Shown here piece after piece: positions 40,918 to 58,424 of a stretch of 64,000 nucleotides of DNA. Positions within the stretch are counted from its first letter, which is position 1. Every line of letters begins with the position of its first letter. The notes beneath the pieces were generated by a model. That model saw only the letters and a program-made list of their open reading frames with translations, did not search any database and had not been told where the DNA came from. A program made the translations under genes and the position numbers. The DNA comes from Eledone cirrhosa (taxonomy: Eukaryota). The stretch covers positions 391,220,001 through 391,284,000 of the forward strand of contig OZ024740.1 of the NCBI GenBank assembly GCA_964016885.1, in the 5' to 3' direction.

Positions 40918-41061
40918 CTATGAATCACACGCCAGTCGCCAAGCATTCAGTTTACGAAGCTTTATTAATGTACTGAAGCCTTTAGTAGTGTTTTTACACA
41001 GCATTGGTTTGATGCGCTTCCCATGTGATCGGTTACGAGCATACTCCACGTGGAATACAGC
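40918..41061 (-). CDS. GH114 glycoside hydrolase, coding exon 4 (last)
   Basis: ttttcag|GCT acceptor, phase 0; AVFHVEYARNRSHGKRIKPMLCKNTTKGFSTLIKLRKLNAWRLACDS*; too short for the ORF track. Confidence 0.88.
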   Translation of the reverse strand, partial: AVFHVEYARNRSHGKRIKPMLCKNTTKGFSTLIKLRKLNAWRLACDS

Positions 41062-41752
41062 CTGAAAAAGAGAAAAAGTACACTTTATTAATATATATAT
41101 ATATATATATATAAAACAACTAGAAATTGATTAACATATAAATAAACATATGAAACAATCACAGGGGATAATTTTTACAAGTGTGCAAGCACACATAGCT
41201 AGGTAGGTAACTAAATAAAATTAACTAGATACCTTATAATATGATTAATCTTCCCTGTATATATTCCATTAAAGAAATATATTTCACCAATTAATCGAAT
41301 GGTAAACCACGGAGGCCGATACTTGGATTTTCAACAAGGAAGAAGTCCAGCCATCTGTGTTTACGCATTAAGTTCAAATCAGCGACTGGCCAGTAAGACG
41401 TGCTGTATCTACTAAAAATACACACATCATACCAGCTTCGTCCCAGTGACGTGAATAGGGTTATCGACAACTAGAAACAGCAGTCAAGTCCTTTCAACAG
41501 AGTTAGCTCTACAATTAAGGAGCCGTATTTATATATCTATATCCAAAATTAAGATAAATCAAAGTGAATTTAATCTAAATCAAAATTATGGGTGTTATAC
41601 CAGAAAGGCATGACACCCATAATTTTGATTTAGATTAAATTCACTTTAATTTTGGATATGTATATATATATATATATATATATATATATATATATATATA
41701 TATATATATACAATATATTAATAAATGGAAACTATATTTATAAAACCATAAT

Positions 41753-41818
41753 TATTTTATTATATATATTTCAAGGGCAACCAAGGCAAATTTTAGTGCG
41801 CTTTCATCAGATAAAATA
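41753..41818 (-). ncRNA. Hammerhead ribozyme, AT-rich family H
   Basis: TATTTTAT-CTGATGA-AAG..CTT-GAAA-TATATA-TA-ATAAAATA, in an islet at ~41711-41895. Confidence 0.75.
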
Positions 41819-43932
41819 CAAATTTGTTTTATAAATAAATATTGACATACTCGCATAAAGACAACCTTAACGGTTGAGGTTCGCTGGATAGTGGAAAAAA
41901 TATTTTATTGAGGGTGATTCAAAGTTATGAGTGAGTATGCAAAATTAAATACAACCTCTGCATATATATATAATCACATACATACATACACACACACACA
42001 CACACACATATATATATATATATATATATATATATATGTCAGGTCGCTCTCGAGTGCTACTGGTAACATGTAACCCAATACAACCTGTCTCATGGTCGGG
42101 TCGTCGGCGACTAAACCGGCAATCCCACCAAGCTTGCTTGGTGAGGAGGGTGATATTTGGACACCCTGCGGGATAAAATACAAGACTCGGCAAAGGACGG
42201 AGGAACTCAGCAGTCAACGGCCATCCAAATAGTATTTAAAAAAAATTATTTTTTAGGGCTGTCGTATTTTCCGTGCGAACATTTGCACCGAAGATATGTG
42301 TCATCAGTTCAAAAAAGGGTGGTTGGTCCTACACAAGTCTTCACCACTTAAAACAAAACTTTGTGTGAGTAGTTCCTGGCTTTTCTACCACTTTAATCTT
42401 TAAATGGGTATTTCTTAAGGCCTTTCTAAATTGGTTAGCTTATTCATTTCCTGGGGTTGCATCCACGAATATGACGTAAACAAGAGAAGAAACCCTTCAT
42501 TAGCTGTTAACTGCGGATCATAGATGTTTTGGCGCTTAAAACAGGACATCGAAATCGATCAGCAGCGCGCCCAAGGCCTTTTATCAATCAAAAGGCTACG
42601 AGGGAAAGAAAAGATAATGAAGAGAGAGGAAGAAAGAGAAAAAAGGAAAGAGGAAAAAACAAAGTAAACAAACCGAATGGAGGGGACACACACACACACA
42701 CACAGGACAATGGCACATGCAAGTGAATAACCGAGGAGAAAATAGAGTAAGTTACAACGAACCGATTGGACTTAAGTCTTGTGGTCAAATAACTGTGGAG
42801 CGAGGTTTTTCCGTGAGATCTCAGCAAAGTGAGTGTAGAGAGAGAGAGAGAAAGACGGAGAAACCGGAAGTGAGAGGGAGAAGGGAAAGGGAGATAATCC
42901 AAAAGAGGTTTACGACATGTGTGAAACCAGGTCGAAAACGAGCAGAAAGATAGAGAGAAAGAGGGGGAGAGAAAAGGAAGAGAGAAACCCCTCATCGGTT
43001 GTTAACTTCGGATCATAGATGTTTATAATCCAATCCAAGGCCATTCTCTCTGCCAAGTTCCATAAGAAGAAGGAGAAGATGCATTAAACTACACTACTTA
43101 TACTATGCTTCACTGAACGACGTTTCAATAAATCAAAACACCATTTTAATATTATATATTCACCAAACTGTCTAGAATATCAGTAATAAAAGAATTAACA
43201 TTACTAGCAACATCAGCAATAACAAAATAAACAACATCAATTACAACAACTACAGCAACCACAGCAAACATATCAGCTTTGGTATTGACGTTTTATGATG
43301 AGTATCATATGCAGATGAGTCTCTGAAATTCATTTAAGACTAAATATCCATAAATTTCGTTCCAACCTCAAACCAATGATATATGCTCCACTCATATATT
43401 TACATACGTCGATTGAATGTTAACCGGTTAATAAAGTCAATATTGATTTATTACTTAGACTGACAACCACAAATTTGTAGAATGAGGTGATTGCGATATA
43501 TTGGCGTGTATGACTTTCCACAAAGCAACAAAGATATATTTTGGAGTTGTACTTGTTTGGCAAATGACTTGATCTGAGAATGTGTGTTGGAACTGAAACA
43601 ATCGGATAGTGGAATTGCCACGAGAGTCATTTGAAACACAGACATACCAACGTTAAAGTGCTAACAACTTTCGCCACACATCTGTGTGACTCTTCAACAG
43701 AAGTATAATTGAAATAGAATGGCTTAAACTGCAAACTGAAATCTGATAGAAGTTGATTTGAGGCTAATTTACTACTAAAAATCGTCAACCAGCGTGCCCT
43801 AACCAATCCTGTATTGTATTTAAGTTAGACAGTGCACCATGTAGTGCTTCAATATCAGATACCCATGTGGTGCCTGTATCCTTTGGTTGATATCTGTTAG
43901 ATGTATTCCTGCCCTTTGTCATGTTTTACTTC

Positions 43933-56530: not shown

Positions 56531-56575
56531 AAGAGATTGACTGTGGGATAATGTATATGAAGTTCTTATACTTAC

Positions 56576-56871
56576 CAACAGAGAGCCAAATATTATACTG
56601 GAGCTGGTCATTAGCGGTCAATCCGAAACCGTTGTCATTATTGTATGCATCAATATTATCTGGTTCAATACCATCACAACCTCTTCGTCTGGCCAATTCG
56701 ATTCTCTCTGAAATAATTCGCTTTACATCTGGACTTCTAATATCTAGCCACCTCTCACCTGGCCAGTTAGAGAGAGGTGTACCTAGAGTAGAGTTAGGAA
56801 AACTGTGAGCATCATGACGCCAATTTTCCCAAGTTCCAACTGATATATAACAGACTACTAGTATGTGTGAT
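56576..56871 (-). CDS. GH114 glycoside hydrolase, coding exon 2
   Basis: ctccag|A ... G|gtaagt, 296 nt, phase 2 to 1; VCYISVGTWENWR..WPGERWLDIRS..GCDGIEPDNIDAY..QLQYNIWL. Confidence 0.92.
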
Positions 56872-58218
56872 CTGGAGAGAAAAACCAATATAATGTTATA
56901 AGAAATAATTTGTCAATATACAATAAAAAAACAAACAAATTTTTATTAAAATAACTCTGAAGGAATTTAAGCGAAACGTGGCTGAACTAAAGTAGATTAC
57001 TTGTACTTATTCTATATACAAATAAAATAACTGGAATCATAAATATAATTCAAAATAACGCATACTGCTTGAAGCAACTCTACGTTTAAAAAATGACGTA
57101 ACTAAATTGAATCGACGTGTTTGCCGTAGCTTAGCTAATGCTTACATTATTACGTGAGTTTTCTGCTACTTTCAAATATTTAATCGGTGATATTTAACCA
57201 CCCTATCTACACATGGCACGTATACTCAGGTTGATTGAGAGTGCGTAAATGAATCTGTTTCAGGATGAGAACTGTCGATTTTTCAGCTGGTAGGTTATGA
57301 TGCAATTGACTTGGCTACCGAATAGTTATTCTAATCAAAGGTACAACTAATATTCTAATCACTAGCATTCATAGGAACTGAGTTTTAACACTTATAGGTA
57401 ACCATTTAAATTTGTACTGAAAACTTTAGATAAGCTACAGGATCCAAGTTTAAAATTTCATCTTTGTAACTAAATTAAGAAACATTTTATGATGTTATCA
57501 CAATGTTAAGAATAAATAGTGTCAAACAGTCACGAAAAACCGCTTGGATATTCATGAATTTCACAATCACCTAATCTTATATTTTATGATTTTCAATATC
57601 AATTTGTATTTAACGAATGTGATATTGAAATAGGTATTAGATATTGTAGGCCAAGAATTAAGCTCTCAATGTGCCGTGAGTTTCCCCTCCCAATTTAAGT
57701 CCTTTCACTTCCTTATTGTACATTTATTGTCCTGTTAAAATATATATCATTCAAAATAAAGCCATTCAAAATCTAAAATCACAATCTAATAAAGAAAAGT
57801 AGTCAATGAAATCTAATTTCAATGTAAGGTTTGACATCCTGCAGACTTATCTCTTAATTTTAATTCATCGATAGATCAATAAGCATAAACAATGAATTTT
57901 GAAAACGTATATATATCCCACATCCCATTCAAGTATAATGAACTAGTCCTCCAATGATAGCCATTGTTGGTTATGAACCATCAAATGTAAGTATAAATCA
58001 GATACAAAAGTTTATTTGTTTAGGAAGTTAAATTGACCACATAATAATATCATATTGCAAAACAATTATCTAGGTCAATGTGAGAAGCGTCATTAAAATA
58101 ATTATAATAGATAAAATAAAATAGTTAAATTACGGATTAAGTATGGATAAGGTTGTTAAACCTGAGGGAAAATGAAACCCTAAAAAAAGGAGGGATCATC
58201 CGATAAAAAATTACATAC

Positions 58219-58424
58219 TTTTTGAGGTAGTCAAACTGTGATTTTGATGTGTCAACTAGATCTACATCATACATTTCTACTTCATAGGATGGATCCAATC
58301 GCGAACTGAGCTGCCATTGCCAAGTCATTCCAGGTTCAAATTGCCACCAGCATCCAAACACTGATGCAATTTGCTGCAAAATAACCAGTTGTAATATGGC
58401 CCACATCCATCCAGCATAAACCAT
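58219..58424 (-). CDS. GH114 glycoside hydrolase, coding exon 1 with signal peptide
   Basis: ATG at 58424; hydrophobic leader ending ..ASVFG; WW..PGMTWQWQLS..MYDVDL; AA|gtatgt donor; an acceptor at 58435-58436 implies an upstream UTR exon. Confidence 0.9.

What the first reader, a model, noticed from the sequence alone, without database searches (positions are those of the whole stretch)
40918..58424. Intact intron-containing GH114 polygalactosaminidase gene in an animal genome
Seen: four exons (206+296+149+144 = 795 nt) join with GT-AG sites and matching phases into a 264-aa stop-free protein with a signal peptide. It keeps WQWQL, CYISVGTWE, GCDGIEPDNID, GLKND and TESC, which include the positions expected for the catalytic Asp and Glu. 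Known: GH114 enzymes such as Aspergillus Ega3 cleave alpha-1,4-galactosamine polymers (GAG, Pel) and the family is mainly bacterial and fungal. Inference: a horizontally acquired or patchily retained gene, domesticated with introns, possibly a secreted anti-biofilm or digestive enzyme. TE-filled introns argue against contamination.
Basis: partly seen in the sequence, partly recalled or inferred. Interest (0 to 1): 0.75.

Follow-up and report, generated by a model that had tools for sequence, protein, structure and literature searches.

The report
Mollusc-wide biofilm-sugar enzyme gene
This is a real, spliced octopus gene for a sugar-cutting enzyme of a mostly microbial family, also found in chitons, snails and clams; it likely entered molluscs once, long ago, from a microbe, and is predicted to be secreted and to cut the positively charged slime sugars of bacterial and fungal biofilms.

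Summary
Four minus-strand exons (206+296+149+144 nt, all GT-AG) give a 264-aa GH114 protein. It is 88% identical to annotated Octopus proteins, single-copy in its genome and spliced in public contigs. The Ega3 catalytic pair maps to Asp140/Glu198, and the model of the orthologue matches Ega3 (TM 0.86). The gene is not an octopus oddity: homologues occur in 14 genera of four mollusc classes. They form one clade (91/99 and 88/71 in two trees), and annotation fragments place introns at the same codons in mussel, zebra mussel, chiton and snail. So there was one origin, at or before the mollusc ancestor. Horizontal transfer is likely but not proven. The closest sequences are Myxococcota-like bacteria sharing a loop signature, yet one tree puts fungal and protist rows as sister, and my searches cannot exclude other animal phyla. 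Activity and tissue are untested. Verdict: a new animal branch of a known enzyme family, auto-annotated in databases and not discussed in the papers that my searches reached.

The parts
58219..58434 (-). Coding exon 1 (CDS 58424-58219, residues 1-69) with a likely 10-nt 5'UTR part after a tandem CAG-CAG acceptor at 58437-58432
   Evidence: PF03537 positions 1-36; covered by spliced contigs of X5, X1, X2
58353..58424 (-). Likely signal peptide, residues 1 to about 24
   Evidence: hydropathy; long N-terminal helix H2-23 in the model of the orthologue P0121; no dedicated predictor run
56872..58218 (-). Intron 1, 1347 nt, GT-AG, phase 2 inside codon 69
   Evidence: skipped as exactly 1347 nt in contigs of 3 of 4 runs laid; same codon in Mytilus and Dreissena fragments
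56576..56871 (-). Exon 2 (residues 69-168); holds loop Trp105 (56765-56763) and the predicted nucleophile Asp140 (56660-56658)
   Evidence: PF03537 E 2.3e-38; gapless alignment of the orthologue to Ega3 in this stretch; X5 contig identical here
52192..56575 (-). Intron 2, 4384 nt, GT-AG, phase 1 inside codon 168
   Evidence: loose ends of X5, X1 and X2 contigs at 56576 read as the start of exon 3; same codon in 5 Mytilus fragments
52043..52191 (-). Exon 3 (residues 168-217); holds the predicted acid/base Glu198 (52102-52100)
   Evidence: PF03537 E 6.7e-15
41062..52042 (-). Intron 3, 10981 nt, GT-AG, phase 0 between K217 and A218, repeat-rich
   Evidence: same break point in Dreissena, Liolophura and Batillaria gene models; junction not seen in contigs
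40918..41061 (-). Exon 4, coding part (residues 218-264 and stop); a contig runs on past the stop
   Evidence: PF03537 positions 192-231; X5 contig covers 40850-41000 and runs 74 letters further; AATAAA 193, 412 and 765 nt past the stop
58435..64000 (-). Part of the 5'UTR intron (about 9834 nt in all; its donor lies outside the window at L084:4268)
   Evidence: loose end of the X5 contig found once among the 93 loci held, in L084, followed by GTAAGT

Best explanation
This is an intact, spliced, single-copy octopod gene of a mollusc-wide GH114 lineage, likely acquired once by horizontal transfer from a bacterium at or before the mollusc ancestor, and it likely encodes a secreted endo-alpha-1,4-galactosaminidase. 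Shown: gene structure, splicing of introns 1 and 2, family, fold of the orthologue, conserved catalytic residues, and presence in four mollusc classes. Inferred from gene-model fragments and trees: a single origin with introns gained before the classes split. Inferred by homology to Ega3: a retaining mechanism with Asp140 as nucleophile, Glu198 as acid/base and the Trp105 loop closing over the cleft. Inferred without direct data: it is released into gut or mucus and cuts galactosamine-rich microbial polymers (Pel, galactosaminogalactan and kin), for digesting grazed or filtered biofilm and for keeping epithelia clear of it.
For: Gene. One locus in a 3.0-Gb genome, on a 443-Mb contig. Family and fold: best PDB match by sequence is Ega3 (E 1.5e-59); the AF2 model of P0121 has pLDDT 95 and Foldseek ranks Ega3 first (TM 0.86, rmsd 1.6). 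Ega3 Asp189/Glu247/Trp154 (PMC12054363 section 3.4) map by spacing in the gapless alignment to D140/E198/W105. D140, E198, N141, E108, Y77, R87 and six cysteines are invariant in 18 of 18 mollusc rows; W105 in 17 of 18. Purifying selection, rough: of 36 listed differences to a related species' contig, 16 codons are silent and 13 change the residue, over 111 silent and 390 replacement sites, i.e. pN/pS about 0.2-0.35 by hand, uncorrected. Single origin: mollusc clade 91/99 (18 of 76 rows) and 88/71 (14 of 57 rows); AU p 0.92; shared break points at all three introns. Bacterial link: a profile of 13 non-cephalopod molluscs scores the best bacteria-type rows 370-383 bits against 165-309 for 9 other eukaryote rows. 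A 14-residue loop signature is in 15 of 20 mollusc, 11 of 26 named Myxococcota and 0 of 8 other eukaryote domains. Molluscs plus 4 opisthokont-type rows as one clade is rejected (AU p 0.0004); molluscs plus signature bacteria is not (p 0.43). GH114 transfer from bacteria to a green-algal family is reported (PMC11811186 passages).
Against: The careful 57-row tree puts a fungus-like protein, a chytrid and Plasmodiophora as sister to molluscs (95/72, not starred), 6.9 log units better than the bacterial-sister tree. No tree gives a supported bacterial sister, and neither bootstrap had settled. Two quick trees split cephalopods from other molluscs, and FastTree placed two non-mollusc rows (a Myxococcota locus and an unnamed 218-aa protein) among them. 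The rejection includes Abeoforma, whose branch is very long. The bacterial rows were chosen by similarity to molluscs, and the signature group was chosen after seeing the alignment. Cephalopods rank only 99-189 of 532 under the non-cephalopod profile, so a diverged orthologue in another phylum would fall below my top-120 and top-150 lists. No ascomycete Ega3 sequence was in the trees. Intron sharing is read from protein fragments and isoforms, not from those genomes. Family membership does not fix the substrate: F. solani GH114 showed no activity on Pel (PMC12054363 section 3.2). Octopod proteins are basic (pI 8.2-8.8, against 4.5-6.4 in 14 other mollusc rows), unlike the acidic microbial enzymes. 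No tissue data.
Confidence: 0.55

Rival explanations
1. Same enzyme, different origin: an older eukaryotic or animal gene kept in molluscs and lost or unseen elsewhere, or a transfer from a fungus or protist rather than a bacterium.
For: Best 57-row tree has fungal and protist rows as sister (95/72). GH114 occurs in many eukaryote lines: foraminifer, amoebozoan, chytrid, oomycete, Plasmodiophora, Abeoforma, and brown algae and chlorophytes (PMC11468063 passage). The top Atlas cluster for both queries is 96% eukaryotic, mostly Ascomycota, which the tool says is no evidence on origin. Patchy GH13_1 amylases in bilaterians are a precedent for this ambiguity (PMC7003070 abstract).
Against: The other eukaryote rows are scattered among bacteria (6 changes for 6 rows). 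A mollusc-plus-opisthokont clade is rejected. The loop signature is absent in 8 of 8 other eukaryote domains. All named animal rows in three top-120 lists were molluscs (2, 5 and 12 rows).
Confidence: 0.25
2. The enzyme was repurposed for the mollusc's own glycans, such as remodelling of galactosamine-containing or other cationic polymers in mucus, shell matrix or egg coats, and not for microbial biofilm.
For: It is kept in grazers, filter feeders and predatory cephalopods alike, usually as one listed gene, which diet alone explains poorly. Octopod copies are basic and fast-evolving. Galactosamine is a major sugar in hydrolysates of a bivalve shell matrix (PMC7887640 passages).
Against: That galactosamine was measured after acid hydrolysis, so it may derive from GalNAc, and says nothing on linkage. 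I know of no alpha-1,4-polygalactosamine made by molluscs (own knowledge; the listing showed none). Cleft residues are as in the microbial enzymes.
Confidence: 0.17
3. Cephalopods acquired their GH114 independently of other molluscs.
For: Octopus is as close to some bacteria-type rows (54%) as to other molluscs (46-52%); two quick trees separate cephalopods.
Against: Same intron positions as bivalves, a chiton and a snail; both careful trees hold all molluscs together; the constrained tree was 48 log units better than the quick tree that split them.
Confidence: 0.02
4. Contamination, a mis-assembly or a pseudogene.
For: The exon 3-4 junction was not seen in contigs.
Against: Spliced contigs in two studies, octopus-type repeat context on a 443-Mb contig, full-length 264-aa orthologues in four named octopods, excess of silent changes.
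Confidence: 0.01

Closest known systems
Ega3 of Aspergillus fumigatus (CAZy GH114, PDB 6OJ1/6OJB)
   Same: Fold (TM 0.86, 41% identity in the structural alignment), catalytic Asp/Glu pair and loop Trp at the same spacing.
   Different: Ega3 is membrane-bound and part of fungal GAG biosynthesis (PMC12054363 introduction). The mollusc protein is a bare domain behind a likely signal peptide, in an animal, with a shorter loop after the VEY motif and, in octopods, a basic pI.
Uncharacterised GH114 proteins of Myxococcota and related bacteria (e.g. Enhygromyxa salina; loci L002-L081)
   Same: Highest sequence similarity outside molluscs (54-62% over matched columns) and the 14-residue loop signature.
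   Different: Intronless, many with long low-complexity N-terminal linkers, acidic pI 4-4.8 in 4 rows checked. No recurring neighbour was evident by eye in the ORF lists of 14 loci (no family scan run).
Database entries for the orthologues (O. bimaculoides LOC106879613, O. sinensis LOC115215683, Lottia LOTGIDRAFT_163670 and others)
   Same: The same gene; several are auto-named 'Glycoside-hydrolase family GH114 TIM-barrel domain-containing protein'.
   Different: Automatic annotation only; no paper in my searches discusses them.
GH13_1 alpha-amylases of bilaterians (PMC7003070, abstract read)
   Same: A microbial- or fungal-type glycosidase with patchy animal distribution, including molluscs, with transfer versus retention debated.
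   Different: Different family and substrate (starch); found in several animal phyla, whereas named GH114 animal hits here were molluscs only.
GH166 PelA hydrolase and GH191 (TM1410-like)
   Same: Related barrel and related substrates (TM 0.70-0.75).
   Different: 11-18% identity; TIGR01370 scores 19-34 bits against a cut-off of 181: not these families.

Membership tests
GH114 (Pfam PF03537) | Match to the family profile above the curated cut-off | tested here: met
   Exon 2 alone 132 bits and exon 3 alone 55 bits against a cut-off of 27; exons 1 and 4 match the profile ends below the cut-off.
GH114 (Pfam PF03537) | Modified (beta/alpha)8 barrel closest to Ega3 and FsGH114 | tested here: met
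   Model of the 88% identical orthologue P0121: Foldseek ranks 6oj1 and 9ep6 first and second. The window's own spliced protein was not folded.
GH114 (Pfam PF03537) | Catalytic nucleophile Asp and acid/base Glu (Ega3 Asp189/Glu247) | tested here: met
   D140 and E198 lie 58 apart, as in Ega3, in a gapless stretch; both are present in the window protein and in 18 of 18 mollusc rows.
GH114 (Pfam PF03537) | Aromatic lid on the beta3-insertion loop (Ega3 Trp154) | tested here: met
   W105, 35 residues before D140 as in Ega3; W in 17 of 18 mollusc rows, Y in one.
GH114 (Pfam PF03537) | Electronegative cleft for a cationic polymer | tested here: inconclusive
   Conserved acidic residues (E84, E108, D140, E198, E223) are kept, but the whole octopod domain is basic and no surface potential was computed.
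GH114 (Pfam PF03537) | Endo-alpha-1,4-galactosaminidase activity | not testable with these tools
   Needs a bench assay.
GH191 / TIGR01370 and GH166 | Profile score or closest fold | tested here: not met
   TIGR01370 19 bits against a cut-off of 181 for P0121; structural matches rank below GH114.
Horizontally acquired animal gene | Integrated in the host genome with introns and spliced transcripts | tested here: met
Horizontally acquired animal gene | Nested with firm support inside a non-animal donor clade | tested here: inconclusive
   The sister group differs between trees; the bacterial-sister tree is not rejected; the opisthokont clade is rejected.
Horizontally acquired animal gene | Absent from related animal phyla | tested here: inconclusive

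The most novel reading that the evidence does not exclude
The mollusc ancestor took a GH114 gene from a Myxococcota-like bacterium, and chitons, snails, bivalves and cephalopods have kept it ever since as a secreted enzyme that dissolves Pel- and GAG-type biofilm matrix: an unrecognised, phylum-wide animal anti-biofilm and biofilm-digesting enzyme.
Probability: 0.35. Interest if true: 0.72.

Novelty: new member of a known kind. Interest (0 to 1): 0.5.

Why it matters
A 2024 paper lists GH114 for brown algae, chlorophytes, fungi and bacteria, not animals (PMC11468063 passage), and few members are characterised (PMC12054363 introduction). A conserved animal branch across a whole phylum means molluscs probably meet and cut cationic galactosamine polymers, either microbial biofilm matrix or an undescribed polymer of their own; either answer would be new. 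If the transfer is confirmed, it is an old, phylum-level gain that can be dated by shared introns. A small secreted single-domain enzyme is also easy to express and test against biofilms, including in farmed bivalves.

Tried and rejected
Run search: no listed holder was on record as RNA, so tissue and level are unknown; splicing rests on contigs that skip the intron. Run X6 gave no cover of the exons and X1, X3, X4 none of exon 4; a hole in contigs proves nothing. The exon 3-4 junction was not bridged. The 5'UTR motif had no match inside the window and was found in the next stretch. A search of the own genome for Spherulin-4/GH135 (PF12138), as a hint of a host GAG pathway, found nothing, but the control genomes were silent too, so it is uninformative. 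Quick trees and FastTree were unstable and are outranked by the careful trees. Left out of the 76-row tree: Dreissena, two chytrid domains and the partial P0026; Dreissena and one chytrid domain were put back in the 57-row tree. Literature: ten searches listed no paper on GH114 in molluscs or other animals, judged from titles and abstract starts. The Ega3 paper (Bamford 2019) is not held, and Naumoff and Stepuschenko 2011 was seen only as a citation; either may mention animal members. Supplementary HGT or CAZyme tables of mollusc genome papers were not searched and could list this gene. Earlier findings of this scan: none by sequence or by the combined words; the 8 shown of 40 for 'GH114' were all microbial or phage. 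The Atlas gave only the family.
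Full report
1. Observation. Exons 58424-58219, 56871-56576, 52191-52043 and 41061-40918 join to 795 nt, 264 aa and a TAG. The introns are 1347, 4384 and 10981 nt, all GT-AG, in phases 2, 1 and 0. The four exons match successive parts of Pfam PF03537 from position 1 to 231. That collinearity across 17.5 kb is far beyond chance. The first ~24 residues are hydrophobic, which suggests a signal peptide; no predictor was run.

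2. It is a real, expressed host gene. The window lies on a 443-Mb contig of a 3.0-Gb genome. Three searches of that genome found only this locus. The protein is 88% identical to annotated 264-aa proteins of Octopus vulgaris, O. sinensis and O. bimaculoides and 80% to Argonauta hians, so the host is an octopod. Contigs of 3 of 4 public runs laid on exons 1-2 skip exactly 1347 nt. One of them (X5) differs from the window by 1 letter over both exons; two come from a related organism in another study. Their loose ends at 56576 read as the start of exon 3. The X5 contig continues upstream into a sequence found once, 9.8 kb away, followed by a GTAAGT donor: a non-coding first exon, consistent with splicing to the first AG of a CAG-CAG acceptor. 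The exon 3-4 junction was not bridged; a separate X5 contig covers the end of exon 4 and runs past the stop. No run is on record as RNA, so tissue is unknown. Of the 36 listed differences to the related organism, 16 codons are silent and 13 change a residue, over 111 silent and 390 replacement sites. That is pN/pS of about 0.2-0.35 by hand, on an incomplete list.

3. Family and mechanism. The best solved relative is Ega3 of Aspergillus fumigatus, by sequence (E 1.5e-59) and by fold (model of P0121, pLDDT 95; TM 0.86, rmsd 1.6). PMC12054363 (sections 1, 3.2, 3.4 and passages read) gives Ega3's verified nucleophile and acid/base as Asp189 and Glu247, and the lid residue as Trp154. In the gapless part of the alignment the same spacings fall on Asp140, Glu198 and Trp105. 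These are present in the window protein. D140 and E198 are invariant in 18 of 18 mollusc rows and W105 in 17. GH191 and GH166 are excluded. A retaining endo-alpha-1,4-galactosaminidase is therefore the best inference. Two cautions apply: F. solani GH114 was inactive on Pel, and the octopod domains are basic (pI 8.2-8.8) whereas 14 other mollusc rows are 4.5-6.4 and 4 bacteria-type rows 4.0-4.8.

4. Distribution. Homologue searches returned named proteins from 14 mollusc genera in four classes: Octopus, Argonauta; Liolophura (two genes); Lottia, Patella, Gigantopelta, Littorina, Pomacea, Batillaria; Crassostrea, Mytilus, Pinctada, Mizuhopecten, Dreissena. All named animal rows were molluscs: 2, 5 and 12 of 120 in the three lists, out of 923, 4603 and 7992 hits. 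Most rows have no name. Of 150 listed representatives I looked up 12, chosen by eye as possibly eukaryotic: 2 molluscs, 6 named non-animal eukaryotes (foraminifer, amoebozoan, chytrid, oomycete, Plasmodiophora, Abeoforma) and 4 unnamed. This does not show absence from other animals. Under a profile of non-cephalopod molluscs, cephalopods rank only 99-189 of 532 domains, so a diverged orthologue elsewhere would be hidden.

5. One origin within molluscs. The careful 76-row tree holds all 18 mollusc rows together at 91/99. Within it, chitons, limpets, three pteriomorph bivalves, Gigantopelta with caenogastropods, and cephalopods form groups, the last on a long branch. The careful 57-row tree, with Dreissena, gives 88/71. 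Bootstraps had not settled in either. Quick trees split off the cephalopods, but the constrained tree was 48 log units better (AU p 0.92). Independent support comes from gene-model accidents. Five Mytilus fragments match the full protein from the equivalent of residue 69 to 167, preceded by Phe/Leu-rich runs and followed by Gly, just as the octopus exon-2 frame does. A Dreissena fragment stops at residue 69. Dreissena, Liolophura and Batillaria isoforms break at 217|218. These are the three octopus intron positions. The reading is indirect, since those genomes were not available. It implies that the gene, with introns, predates the split of chitons from shelled molluscs, which is Cambrian or older (own knowledge).

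6. Where it came from. The nearest named prokaryotic loci are mostly Myxococcota and unclassified deltaproteobacteria. A 14-residue loop after the VEY motif, with a fixed Gly, is in 15 of 20 mollusc, 11 of 26 named Myxococcota, 0 of 12 Chloroflexota and 0 of 8 other eukaryote domains. Other eukaryote GH114s are scattered through the tree, as expected of repeated transfers; one bacterial transfer to a green-algal family is in print (PMC11811186 passages). Molluscs plus four opisthokont-type rows as a clade is rejected (p 0.0004), though the very long Abeoforma branch may drive this. Against a bacterial donor: the best 57-row tree has a fungus-like protein, a chytrid and Plasmodiophora as sister (95/72), and the bacterial-sister tree is merely not rejected (6.9 log units lower, p 0.43). 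The bacterial sample was selected by similarity to molluscs, and no ascomycete was in the trees except possibly the unnamed P0412, which is Ega3-like. I put bacterial transfer at roughly 60%.

7. What it likely does. A bare catalytic domain behind a likely signal peptide points to release outside the cell. The known substrates of the family are fungal GAG and related cationic galactosamine polymers (PMC12054363; PMC11356417 passages). Early molluscs are thought to have grazed biofilm-covered surfaces (own knowledge), which would favour such an enzyme for digestion; retention in filter feeders and predators suggests an added role in controlling microbial films on gut, gill or skin. A host substrate is the main rival. 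It rests on weak evidence (galactosamine in acid hydrolysates of shell matrix, PMC7887640 passages) and on the odd charge of the octopod copies.

8. Novelty. The orthologues carry automatic GH114 names in UniRef, so the gene is in databases. Ten literature searches listed no paper on animal or mollusc GH114 (listings only), and a 2024 paper names no animals for the family. Two key papers and all supplements were not seen. Transfer or patchy retention of glycosidases in animals is a known theme (PMC7003070 abstract). Verdict: a new, phylum-wide animal branch of a known family, of uncertain donor and untested activity; interest 0.5.

Noticed in passing
window 60326-62401 (+): A 691-codon open frame with weak RVT_1 and GIY-YIG matches (both under cut-off), i.e. 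a Penelope-like retroelement, lies antisense inside the gene's 5'UTR intron. An Asn/Thr-rich frame (59427-60383) precedes it, and relatives at 48-66% identity lie 45-67 kb beyond the window end.
   Followed up: partly
window 16000-19000 (-) and 30200-33100 (+): Two GC-rich, decayed copies of another RT-bearing element in opposite orientation, 99% identical over 151 aa.
   Followed up: partly
window 50531-50907 and 62954-63406: Long inverted repeats: 160-nt arms at 96% with a 57-nt spacer in intron 3, and 184-nt arms at 92% around an AT run; MITE-like or foldback elements.
   Followed up: partly
window 43930-44189 and 45416-45675: 260-nt direct repeats, 97% identical and 1486 nt apart, inside intron 3; possibly the ends of a small non-autonomous element.
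   Followed up: no
window 58437-58432: Tandem CAG-CAG splice acceptor before the start codon. The O. bimaculoides and O. sinensis isoform pairs differ by one residue just upstream of the shared Met, as alternative use of such an acceptor would give.
   Followed up: partly
window 41040-41000 (exon 4, residues about 225-240): The loop after the VEY motif is Arg/Lys-rich in all cephalopod rows but His/Asp/Ser-rich in other molluscs; cephalopods also carry an extra Cys at the predicted mature N-terminus.
   Followed up: partly
L006:3001-3729 and 5243-5971: A Kofleriaceae locus carries two GH114-like genes about 1.5 kb apart.
   Followed up: no
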